Shown in pieces: positions 7,047 to 16,442 of a stretch of 64,000 nucleotides of DNA. The first letter of the stretch is position 1. Every line of letters begins with the position of its first letter. The DNA is from the human T2T-CHM13v2.0 reference genome, Homo sapiens: the NCBI RefSeq assembly GCF_009914755.1, contig NC_060937.1; one strand, given 5' to 3'. A program made the position numbers and the translations under genes. The notes beneath the pieces are model-generated. The model was not told the origin of the DNA. It saw only the letters and a list, made by a program, of their open reading frames with translations, and did no database searches.

Positions 7047-8774
7047 TAACTGCATCTCATCAGATGCTTACAAACCAGAGTTCCTACAGCCTACATCTCA
7101 CTAGTTGTTACTTAATACTGAACATAGACATTATAATTTTTTAGTTTTAGTACAAAATTCTAACATTTTAGATGATACTACAGAGATACTATCCTCAATA
7201 TGAAGTATAGAAGATCTTAGATACTGACTAGCCTAAAATATAATTTACCGTCACTATGTAGAACAAGCACTGTAAGGTGGCTCCAAATACATTAAACAAG
7301 TCACAAAGCAGAAGTAACAAGTTAAATTTTTATGCCTTCTGAGGATCTTCTGTTACTAATTCAAACTAATAATTAAAATTATTATTAGTTATATTATACA
7401 CTAGACAATGCACAAGATATGTTTACATTAGTTAACCATGTCTATTTGCCGGTCTTGACTCTCCTCTTCTCCGATTGCTCAAAAAAGAGTTAACATTAGC
7501 TAAAAAATCTTACCATTCTGAACCAAAAATTATTAGAACTTACCATTTCAAATGAAAAGACATGAGGTATACCTACAACACAGCAGGAATAATAAACAAA
7601 TCACATCATTTTATAAACACAGACATATACACACACAAAAGTACCAAGACTATTTAATGACACTCTCAGTAGAGAATTTCATTTTCTAAATTCTCAGAAC
7701 GTTTGAGCTGTTTCTTTTAACATTACTCTGTATAAGTACTCAGCACCTAAAGTCCTCTAACATCCTCTGTATCCTCCACAGTGCTCAGCACTATGTTTTG
7801 AATACAGGAAACAGTGAACAAATTTTTCTTCCAAAATGGAAACCTCCCAGACGACCTGTAAGTCTAATACTCTGAAGTAAAAAGTTAGGTGTGTTGAAAA
7901 CCAAGCAAAAAAAAATTGTTTCTTTGGCTGCTTTTAAAAATACTCTTCATTACTTAATCACGTATGAAGTCTATAAAAATGTATCAGCAGTTGTACCTCA
8001 ATGCCACCTATGTTTTCCAAAGTGCCAAATGTGTAATATCTGAGGCATTAATATTCAATAAATGCCAAGGTCTAGTGATCCATACAGACTGAAAACCATA
8101 ACTGAGCTGCATTGGCATTTGAAAAACAAGACTTCAAACAGCTACTTAATTCTCTCAGTTTACATCTAAGTAACTATAATATGACAAACATAAAATTCGT
8201 GACCTCGAAAAATTCAGAGAACACAATTAGTAGACAACAAAGTCAGAAAAAAATTAGAATACAACTTGGTAAATATAAAGAATAAACTATATTGAACATA
8301 AAAAGGACCAGGTGCAGTGGCTCACACCTGTAATCCCAGCACTTTGGGAGGCAGAGGCAGGAGGATTGCTTTAGCCCAGGAGTTTGAGATCAACCTAGGG
8401 AACACAGTGAGACTCCAACTCTACAAAAAAAATGTTTTTAATTAGGAGGGGCTGGTGTCACACACCTGCAGTCCCAACTACATGGGAGGCTGAGGCAGGA
8501 GGATCACTTAAGCTGAGGAGTTCAAGGTCACAGGGCGCTATGATCGTGCCACTGAACTCCAGTCTGGGTGACACAGCGAGAGCCTGTCTTAAAAAAATTT
8601 TCGGCCAGGTGTAGTGGCTCACTCCTGTAATCCCAACACTTTGGGAGGCTGAGGTAGGTGGATCACCTGAGGACAGGGGTTCGAGACCAGCCTGGCCAAC
8701 ACGGTGAAACCCCGTCTCTACCAAAAATACAAAAATTAGCTGGGCATGGTGGCGGGTGCCTGTCATCCCAGCTA

Positions 8775-9200
<426 letters not shown>

Positions 9201-10827
9201 TTAAAAACAATTTTTAATTTTAAATTATTTTAATGAAAAAGATGACAGCTGGGGTGAGGAATCAGAAGAAACACATGACCTGAGTCTGAACAGATATTCT
9301 CCAAAAGGAAAAAAGAAAACATGATAATTTTTCTGGATTATGAACCTCTCTGAAACTCTAACAGAAGTTAAGATCAAAAAAATGTTAATCAATACAATTA
9401 AGTGTCCTCTGATGAAGTGTGTACACAGTATGAGATTCAGTCATCATTTCCAAGTAGTCATTCAAAAAAGATTTACAAATATGAATGATAAAACACAGAA
9501 AACCATTACTAATAATCATAGCATATGATTAGGCTAACTATACCTCCTGGTTCACCTAAGAAAGCCCATTTTATGCCTATTGTAGGAAGTATTTTAATAG
9601 TATGCATGTTCATTTGTCCCAGTTTGTATGAAAAATTCTACGGTTTCCCACACATCATTAGATATTATTGAAACTATTAAATAATCTTTGGAGGAGTGAT
9701 CAAATAACTCAACACCTGGTTAAAACTGACACATACCTTCAACCAATTATCCCAAATCAGCAAAATCCTACAAATCAATTCTAAGAATATGTGTAAACAT
9801 TACAAACTTATATATATGTTTGTTTTTATTTGATCACAAAAGTCTAAGTTAAGTTACAATTATGTACCGTGCCAAATATTGAGAAAAATCCTTGGCTTGT
9901 AATAAATTATTTTAATGAATAAGTAAAAACATTAACAACCGAAACTAGTCACAACTAGAACATTACATATGAGACCATTGCAATGTCTGTTATTATCCAT
10001 TTTGATTTTCACCAACATGTCCAAACCACTGGGACTAGGCCATCATTATACCATAAATAAGCCTACCAGTCCAGCAGGTCACACTTAAATCTGACATCAA
10101 ATCCTTCAGCAAATAATTCTTTAGTTATTTCCATAACTTAATGAAGAGGCCATAAAAATCCCTTGTAAAATGTGTCTTTTGTTTGAATGCTTCAGAAGTT
10201 TAGACTTCAAAAAACAAATCTTCTTAAGCAACATAAATTCCTCATTAGAGCTTTAAAAACTGTAGAAAAAGAGGGACAGCCATGTGGAAACCACAAAACT
10301 GTAACTTCTGCTCTGGAATCTTCACAAACCATTTCAGAAAATAAATTTGTATCTATTCATTAGTAAATAACAACAGGATCACTCTTCTCTGACAGCATAA
10401 ATTAATGGAATTTTTTTTTTTACCAGATAGAGTTTCTGTTTTTCAGTTTTACACGTGCCACATCAGGGAAAGTTAGGTTATGATTAAAGCAAGAGATGAT
10501 AGATGAACAAACAAAGAAACAACAACAAAAAGCCCATGCAAGAGGCAGGAAAAGAGGCTGACTGGTTAAAGAACAGGCCAGATTGGACAATACTGATCAA
10601 GAGGGGTTCACATTTGAAAGAACAGTGCTTTATTCCTCTACTGACTAGAACTAAAGGGATTTTGGCCGGGTACGGTGGCTCACACCTGTAATCCCAACAC
10701 TCTGGGAAGCCAAGGTGGGCGGGTCACGAGGTCAGGAGTTCGAGACCAGCCTGACCAACATGGTGAAACCCCATCTCTACCAAAAATACAAAAACTTTGC
10801 CGAGCGTGGGCCGGGCGTGGTGGCTCA

Positions 10828-11338
<511 letters not shown>

Positions 11339-11564
11339 TTAACTTTTGCTCTGGTTTATAACCATGACTACCAATGAACCTTCTGGATACTAATTTGGAT
11401 TCCTCAGGAATCCTTGGATCTGGAATATGAGGTACTGTGCTCAGTGAGCCTTCTAAAAACACTGGAAAAGAATATATAAATGAATAGATTTGCATTATTC
11501 TTCACAAGCTCTACAAGTTTGGTAATATGAGCCACTTTTATAGATTCCCTTCAACTCTCGGATT

Positions 11565-11790
11565 CAGAGGTCAGCAAACATTTCAGGTAAAGGGTCAGGT
11601 GTAAATATTTTTTAGGCTTGGCAGGCCATGTAGTCTCAATACAGTCTCACATAGTTGTGTCACAACTACTCAAATCAGTTTTTGTAGGGCAAAATAAACA
11701 AAACAAAACAAAACAAACAAAAAAAGTGTTACAAAAATAGGCAGCATGTGAACTGAGCCTGGTCTGTTCTAGTCTGTCAACCCCTCGACT
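11565..11790. mobile_element. MER58-like hAT MITE
   Basis: Termini CAGAGGTCAGCAAAC ... GTCTGTCAACCCCT with internal GTAAATATTTTTTAGGCTTGGCAGGCCAT. Confidence 0.65.
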
Positions 11791-13170
11791 GGATGAGACA
11801 ATTAAAATTATTAGAACTATGCACGCAAAATTAATGCATAGTTTGAGATAATATGTCCTGCACATATAGTCTGAAAGCCCAAATCAAGGTTGCCACACCC
11901 AAATTCTGCAGGGTACTATTCACGTAGAATGTCATACTGTTTGAACCGTGTTCTAAAGATGGATATATAACCATATGCAGTGGTAGGCAACTGTAGTCCC
12001 ACTATTCAGGAGACTGAGACAGGAGGATAGCTTCAGGAGGTCAAGACCAGCCTGGGTAACACAGGGAGACCCAATCAAAAGAAAGAAAAAAATGAAGAAA
12101 GATGGGTACAGCAGCATGCCTACTCTCCCAGCTACTTGGGAGGCTGAGGCAGGAAGATTCACTTAAGCCCAGGAGTTTGAGGCTGTAGTGTGCTATAATC
12201 ACACTTGTCAATAGCCACTGCACTCCAGCCTGGGCAACACAGCAAGATACCATCAATAAATAAATAAATTGCATCCTATATAAATCTTACACCATGTTGA
12301 ACCACATCAAGCATGCCTTCCACTAACACTCCCAGGATCCATGAAAAATTCAACTATTTTCATTTCAGTATGTCTCATTTCAATACAAGGCCAGTAGTTT
12401 TGAATCTTCGCTACCAAAAAGAAATAAGCAAGGTGTAGAGTTTTCTTTAACACGTATATCTCCTGGTACCAACCTAGACACACTGAATCAAAATACTTGG
12501 AGGACTGAATCTCAGGCATTTTTCCTTAAGTTCCACAAATATATTGCAAGGTTGAAAACTACTGGATTTAGCAAAAAAATGTGATCAAAGATCAATGTAT
12601 TACAATCTACCTGGATCACAAAACAAATCAATTATTAGTAGTATGATCTAAGAACCCACATTTTTTAAAAGCTCCTTGAGTGTTTATTACGTACATTGGA
12701 AAAACACTGTTCTGCTGGGCACAGTGGCATGTGCTTGTTGTCTCAGCCACTCAGGAGGATGAGGAAAGAGGACTGCTTGAGCCCAGCCTGGGCAACATAT
12801 CAAGACCCCATCTCTAAAAGAAAAAAAATGTTTTACATTGTCCTTGGAAGAAGCACTACACTGCTAGCCTCTGCCAACATTCCCTTAATCATTCTGGCCT
12901 CACAGTCCCTCGGGTGCTACAATGGAATGCCTCTGACAAGCAAAGAAATACAACTGAGTCAAACTGTTGCCTTAGCATACAACATACCTTTATTCTCAAG
13001 TTTATTATGTGTGTTGAATAAACTGTGTTGAAACACCTAGGGCTATTCCCAACTACTCAAATGGGACTAATAAGCTTTAATAGTAAGTCAGGTATATATT
13101 TAGTTCAATGCAGGAAACCTGAAAAGGGTATGAAGAATTATTCTTTTCTTTATTGAAAAGGCAAACATTA

Positions 13171-13543
<373 letters not shown>

Positions 13544-14454
13544 TTAAACATCACCCCAATTTTCCTAACCCAAATATTTCATAACTACATGATACAATAA
13601 CTAAAGCTAAAATAAGATGGACGTTTGGATATTTTTATGACATTAACATTTTCCCAAGAAGCAATGTTTACTCCAAGAAACTGCATCAACCAAATGCTAG
13701 AACTAAAATCTGTCATTTAGTCCAATGCAGATTTTTCCCATAAAGACTGGTAAGTACTGAAGTGTTTAAACTACTTAATCTACAGTTGGTGGAGTAACCT
13801 AATATGAAAACAATCACAAGACAATTATAAAAAACAATCTCATAAAATTCTCATTGCTTCCAGAATAATAGCTTTTAATGTGTCCAAAAATTGTGATAAG
13901 TAGAAAATTTCCACTTAGTAAATACTGCCTGGAAAAAAATTGAATACACTCTATATTATGGTAAAGACAAACCTAAATGCAATTAAGACATATTATTAAA
14001 ATGTATACATTCTTAAGGCAGTTGAATGTTATCCTAAATGAGTAAAAAATGTTGTTTAATTTATAGTTACAACAGTAATTATCAAAAAGTTTGTCTTCTA
14101 AGGAAAAATCAAGTATTAAATAAAACTGACAACTGATATTGATGAAGTACTGGCTTACATCCTTGAAACTCTTAAAAATATATTCCCATGTGTCATAAAA
14201 TTATGATCAAGTTGAAGGCTGACAAACAAAAAGATGACCAGATATGACAAGTGTTTTCACTCTTTCTTTGTTACATGAAATTATTATTTAAAATGTGAAA
14301 TATGTAAATCAATATTTATTTTATACTTAAAAGTCCCATAACTCTTAGTTTTGTTGGAATATTTCTATTAGGAAGGCAAGAAGAGAGAGGTGGCATCTTA
14401 AAATTAACAAAGAAAATCAACTTTACTCATTACTTGGACAAGTTGAACACTTAC

Positions 14455-14475
14455 CATTTGATTCCTCCCTTTAAA
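14455..14475 (-). other. Candidate 21-nt in-frame microexon (FKGRNQM) in PSPC1 intron 6
   Basis: TGTGCTTTCTCTTTATTTCACTGTTCAG|TTTAAAGGGAGGAATCAAATG|GTAAGT: good polypyrimidine tract, consensus donor, phase 0-0, no stop. Confidence 0.5.
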
Positions 14476-14527
14476 CTGAACAGTGAAATAAAGAGAAAGC
14501 ACATAAGAGGGCCTAATTTCAAAGCTT

Positions 14528-14530
<3 letters not shown>

Positions 14531-14584
<54 letters not shown>
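14531..14584. repeat. (CA)27 microsatellite, read as (UG)27 in the PSPC1 pre-mRNA
   Basis: Perfect dinucleotide repeat seen directly. Confidence 0.98.
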
Positions 14585-14585
<1 letters not shown>

Positions 14586-15339
14586 CATTAAAATTGTTTA
14601 ACAATTTTCTCCAAAGACAGTTTTCAAAGTAAATGAAGAACAACTGCCAGAATGGCCTCAATGCATTCTTAATACAATGCTTTCCTATTAATATACTCCC
14701 ATTAACACAAAATATTTGAGATAGGTAGAGCTTTCATTCATATTGCTTTTAGTGCTTAAGTTTGCAGTAGTAAGAGGCACTGTGAAGCTTGGAACCAAAT
14801 AAAACTGACACCAAAATAATGAAAAACTTGTGTAGATTCATATCACTTCTAATCACAAATAAACTTATAGAACACTAGTCAGTGTTACACAATTATCATA
14901 CCTCATTTACATACTATTTGAAATACGGATACCCCAAAAAGTTAAGAGCATAGTAACTTTGTGGTCTATCTACCATAAATACTAATTTTAAAATTTTTTA
15001 AAAAACATAAATATTCCAGCCCAGGTTTCCACAGACACTATAAAAAGGTCAGAAAAAAATATTTTAAGTTATTGCGAGTCACAAATCATTTCTAATATTC
15101 TTCTTTCTTTTGCAATAACCCTTTAAAAACAGAAGCACCATCAGTATCTCTGTGGTGGAGTAATAAAAACCAGGCAGTAGTCCCAGGCTAGAGCTTGCCA
15201 ACTTACACTCTAGCCAAATTAATTTTATCATGATGCTTCAAGTATGCGATACATACTTTAAGTAACTACTAGAAAAGAAGGTATATTGTCACCTAATGCT
15301 TTTCTATAAGCATAATCTTATGAAACAATAGATGATCTA

Positions 15340-15717
<378 letters not shown>

Positions 15718-16336
15718 TCAAAGAAACCAAATGTTTAAAAAAAAAAAAATTAAGACCTGTGCAAATCTGGGCTTTAATTAGTTAAGATGAAAGAGCTGAC
15801 CATTTTTAAAATATGATAAAGATTTTTTTAAAAAGTCCTCATCTTTTAGAGATACATACTGAAAATAAAATTATATGAAATCAGGTATTTCAAATAACAT
15901 AAATTGGGAAATAAAGTGGTTATACTTAAAGATGTAAAAGATTGGCCATATGTTTATAAGTGTTCACTACAATTCTTCTGTACATGTCTGAAATCTTCCA
16001 AAATAGAGATGTTTCAATATTAGTATGTGGTGAAAATCAGTCAAGTGGAAATGATGTATATATCAAGATTTCTAACTTAATAGCATATGTTTTTTTAAAG
16101 ATCAACCAAAATAATAGGAAAAAATATAACATCCACTTCATAAAACATAGATATCTTCAGAAACTAATTTTACTTTACCACCTATGAGAGGTTAAGAAAA
16201 TCACTAATTTATCAAACATGATGAATTTAGAAAGATTAGAAAAGACTACTGTATAAACCAAAATCTAAAGCATTCTAAATATGCATCATAAACCTGAAAA
16301 TATAAAATCATTTTAGTTAACTAGTAGTTTACTTAC

Positions 16337-16442
16337 ATTTTCCATGTAGTTTGGCTTAAAGCCCTCTTGCTGTCGCCTCAGTTCCTCCTGTTCTCTGTGT
16401 CGGATCATTTCTTCCTCACGCCGCCGATGCTCCTCTTCATGT
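16337..16442 (-). CDS. PSPC1: PSPC1 coding exon (106 nt, probably exon 6): [35 protein letters not shown]
   Basis: Acceptor ATTTTCAG|ACATGAA, donor GAAAAT|GTAAGT (phase 0). I found no next canonical exon (REQEMRM...) in 1-16336, so it should lie left of the window. Confidence 0.97.

What the first reader, a model, noticed from the sequence alone, without database searches (positions are those of the whole stretch)
14449..14584. Candidate 21-nt in-frame microexon (FKGRNQM) just downstream of a (UG)27 tract in PSPC1 intron 6
Seen: on the transcribed strand, (UG)27 is followed by ~55 nt ending in TGC-TTTCTCTTTATTTCACTGTTCAG, then 21 nt (TTT AAA GGG AGG AAT CAA ATG) and a consensus ATG|GTAAGT donor. 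Exon 6 ends in phase 0, so inclusion gives ...NYMEN-FKGRNQM-(next exon) with no stop. Established: TDP-43 binds UG repeats and represses adjacent cryptic exons; SRRM3/4-dependent microexons are 3-27 nt, frame-preserving, with UGC near the 3' splice site (here about -25, a little far). Inference: a TDP-43- or CELF-gated, or neural, microexon inserting 7 aa between the coiled-coil and the low-complexity tail. It would link TDP-43 state to a core paraspeckle protein, and repeat length could tune inclusion.
Basis: partly seen in the sequence, partly recalled or inferred. Interest (0 to 1): 0.85.

Follow-up and report, generated by a model that had tools for sequence, protein, structure and literature searches.

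The report
Start of known PSPC1 alternative exon
The proposed 21-base microexon is the first 21 bases of an already annotated alternative end-exon of the human PSPC1 gene, and nothing available here shows that its internal splice donor is ever used.

Summary
A pure (UG)27.5 tract sits at 14530-14584. It is followed by 54 nt ending in a strong pyrimidine tract and CAG, then 21 nt (14475-14455, FKGRNQM), then GTAAGT (14454-14449). Exon 6 ends in phase 0.

The hub's RefSeq table lists an exon 12742-14475 in other PSPC1 transcripts. Read through, that exon adds 23 codons and a stop. By my count this gives a 409-aa PSPC1 without the C-terminal low-complexity tail.

The "microexon" is therefore the start of that exon plus an unannotated internal consensus donor. 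None of the 17 RefSeq transcripts has an exon 14455-14475.

- **TDP-43 data:** PSPC1 is absent from the held supplement of a compendium of 3,905 TDP-43-loss cryptic splicing events, with a working positive control. None of the 7 PSPC1 rows in a cryptic-polyadenylation table lies in this window.
- **Neural-microexon motifs:** they are weak. There is no GCAUG, and the only UGC lies at -26.

Conservation and RNA-seq junctions could not be tested. Verdict: the acceptor is real and known; the microexon and TDP-43 gating are unproven. Low interest.

The parts
14530..14584 (-). (UG)27.5 tract in the pre-mRNA. It is a candidate binding platform for TDP-43 or other GU-binding proteins, 54 nt upstream of the acceptor.
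   Evidence: Tandem Repeats Finder: period 2, 27.5 copies, 100% matches. It is the only (TG)n run of 6 or more units on the transcribed strand of the window. Protein binding is inferred from established knowledge and was not tested.
14476..14529 (-). 54-nt spacer. It holds a branch-point-like CUUAU (A at -29, window 14504), a pyrimidine tract, and the CAG acceptor (AG at 14477-14476).
   Evidence: Pyrimidine fraction at -23..-4 is 0.85, the highest of the 8 annotated acceptors in the window (the others are 0.55-0.70).
14455..14475 (-). The 21 nt proposed as a microexon (FKGRNQM). They are the first 21 nt of the annotated alternative exon.
   Evidence: plus the hub RefSeq table (exon 12742-14475). 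No exon 14455-14475 is annotated.
14449..14454 (-). Internal consensus 5' splice site, ATG|GTAAGT. It is unannotated.
   Evidence: It matches 7 of 9 positions of CAG|GTAAGT, equal to the best annotated donors in the window. Its 11-nt context AAATG|GTAAGT is identical to the donor of the annotated 29-nt exon 7544-7572. 3 of the 15 GTAAGT sites on this strand are annotated donors.
14404..14475 (-). Read-through coding part of the alternative exon: 23 codons (FKGRNQMVSVQLVQVMSKVDFLC), then TAA at 14406-14404.
   Evidence: Together with 124 aa from exon 1 and 262 aa from exons 2-6 this gives 409 aa.
12742..14475 (-). Annotated RefSeq exon of other PSPC1 transcripts. It behaves as an alternative 3'-terminal exon inside intron 6.
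   Evidence: Hub gene table. There is no GT after 12742 (GAG|ACAACA). Poly(A) signal hexamers lie at +155, +415, +596, +1321, +1394, +1469 and +1481 nt from the acceptor. None lies 10-30 nt before the annotated end.
14315..14320 (-). First AATAAA in the alternative exon, about 135 nt downstream of the internal GTAAGT.
16337..16442 (-). PSPC1 exon 6, the upstream exon. It ends ...NYMEN in phase 0, with donor AAT|GTAAGT.
   Evidence: plus the hub table.

Best explanation
The feature is the 5' end of a known alternative 3'-terminal exon of PSPC1, lying inside intron 6 (RefSeq exon 12742-14475).

**Main product (shown from sequence and annotation).** Exon 6 splices to the acceptor at 14475. Translation then runs 23 codons to a TAA. 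The result is a C-terminally truncated PSPC1, 409 aa by my count. It keeps everything encoded through exon 6 and loses the Gly/Pro/Met-rich tail that ends ...NKRRRY.

**The 21-nt 'microexon'.** It is simply the first 21 nt of this exon, up to an internal GTAAGT that no annotation uses.

**What the GTAAGT most likely does (inferred).** I think it is either incidental or acts as a U1 snRNP docking site. As a docking site it could help define the unusually strong acceptor. It could also hold back the nearest poly(A) signal, about 135 nt downstream. Actual splicing from it would be at most a minor event.

**The (UG)27 tract (inferred).** It sits 25 nt upstream of the likely branch point and may dampen use of this acceptor through TDP-43 or another GU-binding protein. 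The available TDP-43-loss catalogues show no event here.
For: - **Acceptor is annotated.** The hub table lists exon 12742-14475 in other RefSeq transcripts.
- **Terminal-exon character.** There is no GT at the annotated 3' end (GAG|ACAACA). An in-frame stop follows after 23 codons. Several AATAAA/ATTAAA hexamers lie inside the exon.
- **Protein arithmetic.** The exon 1 ORF is 124 aa up to a GTGAGT donor and exons 2-6 are 262 aa, so exon 6 ends at residue 386. The canonical tail exons, ending ...NKRRRY, lie downstream of the window.
- **No microexon in annotation.** No exon 14455-14475 appears among the exons the hub lists for 17 RefSeq transcripts.
- **No TDP-43-dependent event reported.** PSPC1 has 0 occurrences in the compendium supplement, against STMN2 9 and UNC13A 49. 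That compendium covers 3,905 events in 2,684 genes. All 7 PSPC1 rows of the cryptic-polyadenylation tables concern the canonical stop-codon exon or more distal 3' ends (mapped).
- **Precedent for short forms.** A shorter mouse PSPC1 isoform of 391 aa lacking the C-terminal NLS is reported (Myojin 2004, as cited in PMC4395133; passage seen). The paralogue SFPQ has an alternative isoform lacking its NLS, with 7 unique residues (PMC12372870; passages seen).
Against: - The donor is as good as any used donor in the window (7 of 9, full GTAAGT). Its 11-nt context is identical to that of the annotated 29-nt exon's donor. Some use is therefore plausible.
- A strong donor within 27 nt of one given real acceptor is uncommon. 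From the counts, about 25 x 44/64000 = 1.7% for any length. The juxtaposition may therefore be functional.
- RefSeq models and short-read aligners can miss 21-nt exons.
- The cryptic-splicing compendium lists only junctions that are unannotated in GENCODE v40, are under 5% in controls, and rise by more than 10 points on knockdown. A constitutive low-level or tissue-specific microexon would not appear in it.
- I could not see which RefSeq transcript carries exon 12742-14475, whether it is coding, or how much it is expressed.
- The annotated 3' end at 12742 has no poly(A) signal hexamer 10-30 nt upstream. The true 3' end is therefore uncertain.
Confidence: 0.7

Rival explanations
1. One reading: a genuine, regulated, frame-preserving 21-nt microexon. 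Exon 6 joins 14475-14455, which then joins canonical exon 7. This inserts FKGRNQM after residue 386, between the coiled-coil and the low-complexity tail. Inclusion is gated by TDP-43 or CELF on the (UG)27 tract, or by neural SRRM3/4.
For: - 21 nt, stop-free and phase-preserving.
- The acceptor is proven by annotation (hub table).
- The donor is a full GTAAGT, with a context identical to a used donor in the same intron.
- It is the only in-frame acceptor-donor pair at strict thresholds in 64 kb.
- The only long UG tract in the window lies 54 nt upstream.
- PTB-like CUCUCU motifs lie both upstream (-21, -35) and downstream (+85 to +89). This fits exons repressed outside neurons; that link is inferred.
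Against: - Not among the exons of 17 RefSeq transcripts (hub table).
- PSPC1 is absent from the TDP-43 cryptic-splicing compendium supplement and from the cryptic last-exon table.
- No GCAUG within 325 nt on either side; the single UGC is at -26..-24.
- 0 papers contain the junction or tail peptides.
- Exons this short are poorly recognised without dedicated enhancers (established knowledge).
- Conservation was not testable here.
Confidence: 0.1
2. The GTAAGT is used, but the 21-nt exon is joined to the other alternative exons of the intron rather than to exon 7. The candidates are the antisense-Alu exon starting at 12813 and the 29-nt frameshifting exon 7544-7572. The products would be further truncated or NMD-prone transcripts that lower PSPC1 output. 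No 7-aa insertion protein would result.
For: - Both downstream acceptors are annotated (hub table).
- Joining to 12813 would read on in frame into Alu sequence, to a stop after about 20 codons (my reading).
- The 29-nt exon shifts the frame, since 29 is not a multiple of 3.
- The paralogue SFPQ uses an unstable, NMD-sensitive alternative isoform for autoregulation (PMC12372870; passages seen).
Against: From the listed exons, RefSeq appears to join those acceptors directly to exon 6, because no exon 14455-14475 is listed. There are no expression data. No paper in my searches describes poison-exon control of PSPC1 (listing only).
Confidence: 0.1
3. Pure coincidence. The GTAAGT and the UG repeat have no role. 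The alternative exon itself is low-level transcriptional noise of a long AT-rich intron that happens to be catalogued.
For: - About 1 acceptor-donor pair is expected by chance in the window and 3 are seen.
- 11 of the 15 GTAAGT sites on this strand are neither annotated donors nor this candidate.
- The annotated 3' end has no nearby poly(A) signal hexamer.
- There is no significant RNA structure (z +1.71 and +0.25).
- The TDP-43 datasets show nothing here.
Against: The acceptor has the best pyrimidine tract of all annotated acceptors in the window. The annotated acceptor being one of only 3 paired sites among 59 has a chance of about 0.05. The only UG tract in 64 kb lying within 60 nt of an annotated acceptor is also unlikely by position alone.
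Confidence: 0.2

Closest known systems
CFTR exon 9 (UG)m(U)n tract bound by TDP-43 (recalled established knowledge; no call)
   Same: A polymorphic-type UG repeat lies just upstream of a 3' splice site. TDP-43 bound there would be expected to inhibit use of that site.
   Different: In CFTR the repeat abuts the pyrimidine tract of a constitutive-type internal exon. Here it lies 54 nt upstream, beyond the likely branch point, and the exon is an alternative terminal exon. No binding or knockdown effect is shown for PSPC1.
TDP-43-repressed cryptic last exons such as STMN2 exon 2a (listed in PMC12586162 Supplementary Table 2, seen)
   Same: An intronic acceptor is followed by premature polyadenylation and truncates the protein. 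A GU-rich TDP-43 site lies close by.
   Different: The PSPC1 exon is annotated, not cryptic. PSPC1 is absent from that paper's cryptic-event table; all 7 PSPC1 rows are in Table 3 and lie elsewhere in the gene.
altSFPQ, the alternative isoform of the paralogue SFPQ (PMC12372870; passages seen)
   Same: A DBHS-family protein is cut short at its C-terminal low-complexity region by an alternative 3' exon choice and gains a few unique residues. In SFPQ this also removes the NLS. The same family logic may apply to PSPC1's short forms.
   Different: altSFPQ arises from exon 9-to-11 splicing, is NMD-sensitive, and has been shown to be translated and autoregulatory. None of this has been tested for the PSPC1 exon.
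SRRM3/4-dependent neural microexons (recalled established knowledge; no call)
   Same: 3-27 nt long and frame-preserving. A strong donor compensates for the short length.
   Different: The only UGC sits at -26..-24, upstream of the pyrimidine tract rather than next to the AG, and there is no GCAUG. There is no junction evidence and no conservation data.
U1 snRNP inhibition of nearby poly(A) sites: 5' splice-site-like elements in terminal exons, telescripting (recalled established knowledge; no call)
   Same: A consensus U1 site lies inside a terminal exon, about 135 nt upstream of the first AATAAA. The annotated exon runs on past that signal for 1.7 kb.
   Different: This is purely positional inference. 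No 3'-end data were available, and the annotated end itself is not a mapped poly(A) site.

Membership tests
Annotated alternative 3'-terminal exon of PSPC1 | The acceptor coincides with an annotated exon boundary | tested here: met
   The hub RefSeq table lists exon 12742-14475. The AG at 14477-14476 directly precedes 14475.
Annotated alternative 3'-terminal exon of PSPC1 | No splice donor at its 3' end; an in-frame stop and poly(A) signals lie inside | tested here: met
   The 3' end reads GAG|ACAACA. TAA follows after 23 codons. There are seven AATAAA/ATTAAA hexamers inside the exon. However, none lies 10-30 nt before 12742, so the real cleavage site is unknown.
Annotated alternative 3'-terminal exon of PSPC1 | Transcript and protein evidence for the isoform | not testable with these tools
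   No RNA-seq, EST or proteomics resource was available. 0 papers contain the tail peptides.
SRRM3/4-type neural microexon | 3-27 nt, a multiple of 3, no stop | tested here: met
   21 nt encoding FKGRNQM, with phase 0 on both sides.
SRRM3/4-type neural microexon | Both junctions used (the donor at 14454 splices onward) | not testable with these tools
   Not among the exons listed for 17 RefSeq transcripts (hub table). No junction database was available.
SRRM3/4-type neural microexon | UGC-containing enhancer close to the 3' splice site, or other microexon enhancers such as GCAUG | tested here: inconclusive
   There is one UGC at -26..-24 and none closer. No GCAUG lies within 325 nt on either side. 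The expected motif position is recalled, not taken from a call.
SRRM3/4-type neural microexon | Deep conservation of the exon and flanking intron | not testable with these tools
   No other vertebrate genome is held. The protein database search returned nothing.
TDP-43-repressed cryptic exon | UG-rich TDP-43 site in or next to the exon | tested here: met
   (UG)27.5 lies 54 nt upstream of the acceptor. Binding itself was not tested.
TDP-43-repressed cryptic exon | Unannotated in normal transcripts | tested here: not met
   The acceptor is annotated in RefSeq (hub table). Only the donor is unannotated.
TDP-43-repressed cryptic exon | Appears on TDP-43 loss | tested here: not met
   PSPC1 has 0 occurrences in the compendium supplement, against STMN2 9 and UNC13A 49. 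None of the 7 PSPC1 rows in PMC12586162 lies in the window. Caveats: stored files may be cut, and short-read pipelines can miss 21-nt exons.
U1-site control of a terminal exon's poly(A) site | Consensus 5' splice site inside the terminal exon, upstream of a poly(A) signal | tested here: met
   GTAAGT at 14454-14449 and AATAAA at 14320-14315.
U1-site control of a terminal exon's poly(A) site | The proximal poly(A) site is suppressed in a U1-dependent way | not testable with these tools
   This needs 3'-end sequencing with and without a U1 antisense oligonucleotide.

The most novel reading that the evidence does not exclude
Intron 6 of PSPC1 holds a three-way switch set by occupancy of the (UG)27 tract and by U1 at the internal GTAAGT.

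1. Acceptor blocked: full-length PSPC1.
2. Acceptor used and donor spliced: a 7-aa insertion (FKGRNQM) at the junction of coiled-coil and low-complexity region.
3. Acceptor used and donor not spliced: polyadenylation, giving a 409-aa protein without the C-terminal tail.

Repeat length and TDP-43 state would then tune the make-up of a core paraspeckle protein.
Probability: 0.08. Interest if true: 0.6.

Novelty: already known. Interest (0 to 1): 0.22.

Why it matters
If the microexon or a TDP-43-sensitive switch were real, it would tie TDP-43 state and a polymorphic repeat to the C-terminal domain of a core paraspeckle protein. That would interest ALS/FTD research.

As it stands, the solid part is already in RefSeq: an alternative exon starting at 14475 that truncates PSPC1 after the coiled-coil. 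The novel part, use of the internal donor and gating by the repeat, has no support in the data I could reach.

The useful outcome is a precise and cheap test: two junctions to look up. There is also a caution. A consensus donor just inside an annotated terminal exon is not evidence of a microexon.

Tried and rejected
1. **Retrocopies as a fossil record of splice isoforms.** I searched the window's own genome with exon 6. As DNA it returned 1 match, itself. As protein it returned 2 matches: itself and a 67%-identical hit on contig C23, presumably the paralogue. There is no retrocopy to read.
2. **Conservation of the 23-aa tail in the protein database.** I re-sent it as a 40-codon contiguous window reference that includes 17 intronic codons. 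It gave 1 candidate, and none was scored. The database is uninformative for mammalian isoforms.
3. **Identity with the classical short isoform.** I first assumed the exon encodes the 393-aa human short form (a recalled length). Counting residues gives 386 + 23 = 409, so I dropped that. 393 = 386 + 7 fits read-through of the exon-6 donor (VSKLLVN then stop). It would also fit FKGRNQM followed by an immediate stop. I could not decide between these, and 0 papers contain VSKLLVN.
4. **Coordinate phrase searches in two supplements.** Both returned nothing, but the positive control also returned nothing. These three calls are void.
5. **RNA structure.** Folding 14430-14600 gave z = +1.71, with 194 of 200 shuffles folding at least as well. 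A local stem pairing the pyrimidine tract with the purine-rich exon start is no better than shuffles: z = +0.25, 119 of 200. Rejected.
6. **Repeat-element origin.** The stretch 14250-14529 is unique in the genome at the sensitivity used.
7. **Recursive splicing.** The exon-6 end joined to TTTAAA does not rebuild a donor (my reading). Rejected.
8. **Literature.** Nine searches found no paper describing a PSPC1 microexon, a PSPC1 cryptic exon, or this alternative exon. In the passages I opened, PSPC1 appears only as a protein, a marker or a reference, or in remarks on its protein isoforms. Fox 2005 (PMC1266428) is not held. Fox 2002 and Myojin 2004 were not available.

Full report
**1. What is in the sequence**

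- A perfect dinucleotide array lies at 14530-14584: period 2, 27.5 copies, 100% matches.
- It is followed by 54 nt that end in TGCTTTCTCTTTATTTCACTGTTCAG.
- Then come TTTAAAGGGAGGAATCAAATG (14475-14455) and GTAAGT (14454-14449).
- Exon 6 (16337-16442) ends ...NYMEN on a complete codon. Exons 2-6 of the window, concatenated, read open in one frame only.
- The 21 nt encode FKGRNQM with no stop.

**2. The decisive point: the acceptor is already annotated**

It lists among the "exons of other transcripts" an exon 12742-14475.
- There is no GT at its other end (GAG|ACAACA).
- It contains an in-frame stop after 23 codons: FKGRNQMVSVQLVQVMSKVDFLC, then TAA at 14406-14404.
- It carries seven AATAAA/ATTAAA hexamers, the first 155 nt from the acceptor.

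It therefore behaves as an alternative 3'-terminal exon inside intron 6. No exon 14455-14475 is among the exons the hub lists for the 17 RefSeq transcripts.

**3. What the alternative exon would encode**

I fetched the region upstream of the window from the same genome. The first coding exon is an ORF of 124 residues running into a GTGAGT donor. Exons 2-6 add 262 residues, so exon 6 ends at residue 386. The alternative exon would give 409 residues.

Downstream of the window I found the canonical tail exons. They are Gly/Pro/Met-rich and the last ends ...NKRRRY before the stop. The alternative exon thus removes the whole low-complexity tail.

[quoted passage not shown] It cites Myojin 2004 (PMC4395133; passage seen).

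I had recalled a human short form of 393 aa. 393 = 386 + 7 does not fit this exon. It does fit read-through of the exon-6 donor, which gives seven codons and then TAA (sequence). I could not settle which event makes that isoform; that needs the UniProt or RefSeq records.

**4. Quality of the sites, and chance**
- *Acceptor:* its pyrimidine fraction at -23..-4 is 0.85, against 0.55-0.70 for the other 7 annotated acceptors in the window.
- *Donor:* it matches 7 of 9 consensus positions, equal to the best annotated donors. Its 11-nt context AAATG|GTAAGT is identical to the donor of the annotated 29-nt exon 7544-7572.
- *GTAAGT sites:* of 15 on this strand, 3 are annotated donors.
- *Pairs:* at strict thresholds the strand has 59 acceptor-like and 44 donor-like sites. 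3 pairs lie 3-27 nt apart, against about 1 expected by my arithmetic. Only this one is in frame and stop-free.
- *Coincidence with annotation:* the annotated acceptor being one of those 3 among 59 has a chance of about 0.05.

So the juxtaposition is suggestive but not compelling. A functional link between acceptor and donor, through exon definition or U1 docking, is plausible.

**5. The UG tract**

It is the only (TG)n run of 6 or more units on the transcribed strand of the window. It ends 25 nt upstream of a branch-point-like CUUAU, whose A is at -29. From established knowledge (recalled), TDP-43 binds UG repeats and inhibits nearby 3' splice sites, as at CFTR exon 9. Repression of this acceptor is therefore a fair hypothesis.

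**6. Tests against TDP-43-loss data**
- *(a) Cryptic-splicing compendium.* A preprint collates TDP-43 knockdown datasets and defines 3,905 cryptic splicing events in 2,684 genes at a liberal threshold (PMC12667841; main-text passages seen). Its held supplementary file has 0 occurrences of PSPC1. The positive controls are found: STMN2 9 and UNC13A 49.
- *(b) Cryptic polyadenylation.* The study PMC12586162 has 7 PSPC1 rows, all in its Table 3 and none in the cryptic Table 2. I mapped them with the tail exon found, giving an hg38-minus-T2T offset of about 803.9 kb. They concern the canonical stop-codon exon, its extension, and the distal 3' end. All lie about 25 kb or more downstream of 14475.
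- *(c) Second polyadenylation study.* PMC12586192 has 3 PSPC1 occurrences. The two I saw are poly(A) sites at the same canonical and distal positions. The third row was not seen.

My attempt to search these supplements by coordinate failed its positive control and is void.

Caveats apply. Stored files may be cut. The compendium excludes junctions annotated in GENCODE v40. Short-read aligners can miss 21-nt exons.

**7. Neural-microexon features**

The only UGC in the last 100 nt before the acceptor is at -26..-24, upstream of the pyrimidine tract. There is no GCAUG within 325 nt on either side. PTB-like CUCU motifs flank the segment at -35, -21 and +85 to +89. This is compatible with, but no evidence for, repression outside neurons.

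**8. Other checks**
- RNA folding shows nothing beyond shuffles (z +1.71 and +0.25).
- The segment 14250-14529 is single-copy in the genome at the sensitivity used.
- No retrocopy of the exon-6 region exists to record past splice forms.
- The protein database gave no relatives of the tail.
- Nine literature searches found no description of a PSPC1 microexon, cryptic exon or this alternative exon.

**9. Mechanism I commit to**

*Shown:* there is an annotated acceptor. An in-frame stop follows 23 codons later. An internal consensus donor lies at +21, and the first AATAAA is about 135 nt beyond it.

*Inferred:*
- Most transcripts that use this acceptor end in this exon and encode a tail-less PSPC1. 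The logic is analogous to the NLS-less alternative isoform of the paralogue SFPQ (PMC12372870; passages seen).
- The GTAAGT is either incidental or binds U1. Bound U1 would help define the acceptor and disfavour the nearest poly(A) signal.
- Splicing from the GTAAGT is at most minor.
- The UG tract may reduce acceptor use through GU-binding proteins, but the available knockdown catalogues show no event here.

My odds are as follows.
- About 0.7 for this overall reading.
- About 0.1 for a genuine regulated in-frame microexon.
- About 0.1 for donor use feeding only truncated or NMD-prone forms.
- About one in three that at least trace junction reads from 14455 exist somewhere.

**10. Novelty and verdict**

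The real feature, the acceptor and its exon, is already annotated. The proposed novelty, the microexon and TDP-43 gating, is untested by direct data and unsupported by the indirect data I could reach. Conservation and RNA-seq junction evidence are the two decisive tests, and neither could be run here. Interest is low unless a junction look-up shows the 14455 donor in use.

Noticed in passing
window 16313-16336 (minus strand, directly after exon 6): Read-through of the exon-6 donor gives seven codons (VSKLLVN) and then TAA. The result would be 386 + 7 = 393 aa, which equals the length I recall for the human short PSPC1 isoform. The only AATAAA/ATTAAA hexamer between exon 6 and the UG repeat is an ATTAAA at 15778, 558 nt downstream of the exon-6 end.
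   Followed up: partly
window 7544-7572 (minus strand): This annotated 29-nt alternative exon is not a multiple of 3, so it shifts the frame if spliced between exons 6 and 7. Its donor context AAATG|GTAAGT is identical over 11 nt to the candidate donor at 14454. It may be a poison exon.
   Followed up: partly
window 12813 (minus strand), start of annotated exon 9166-12813: The acceptor TTTTTTTTCTTTTAG|AGATGGGGTCTTG... looks like the classic antisense-Alu exonisation site (family recalled, not tested). The exon overlaps the 3' end of exon 12742-14475 by 72 nt.
   Followed up: no
outside the window; hg38 chr13:19,674,755 and 19,702,870 as given in the papers' tables: PSPC1 3'-end usage shifts modestly with TDP-43 loss. 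In TDP-43-negative neuronal nuclei the site at 19,702,870 goes from 0.21 to 0.14 and the distal site from 0.47 to 0.55. In one SH-SY5Y dataset the canonical stop-codon exon goes from 0.68 to 0.80. These changes are small and are not at the finding.
   Followed up: partly
window 14385-14390 and 14424-14432 (minus strand): Downstream of the GTAAGT there is a CUCUCU-type pyrimidine run at +85 to +89. There are also two further GTAA-containing words, AGTAATG and AGTAAAG. These are possible extra PTB and U1-like sites, and in AT-rich intron they are probably chance.
   Followed up: no
window 12742 and 9166 (annotated 3' ends): Exon 12742-14475 has no AATAAA/ATTAAA hexamer 10-30 nt upstream of its annotated 3' end. 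The annotated end of exon 9166-12813 lies inside Alu-like sequence (my reading). Both may be model or cDNA ends rather than mapped cleavage sites.
   Followed up: no
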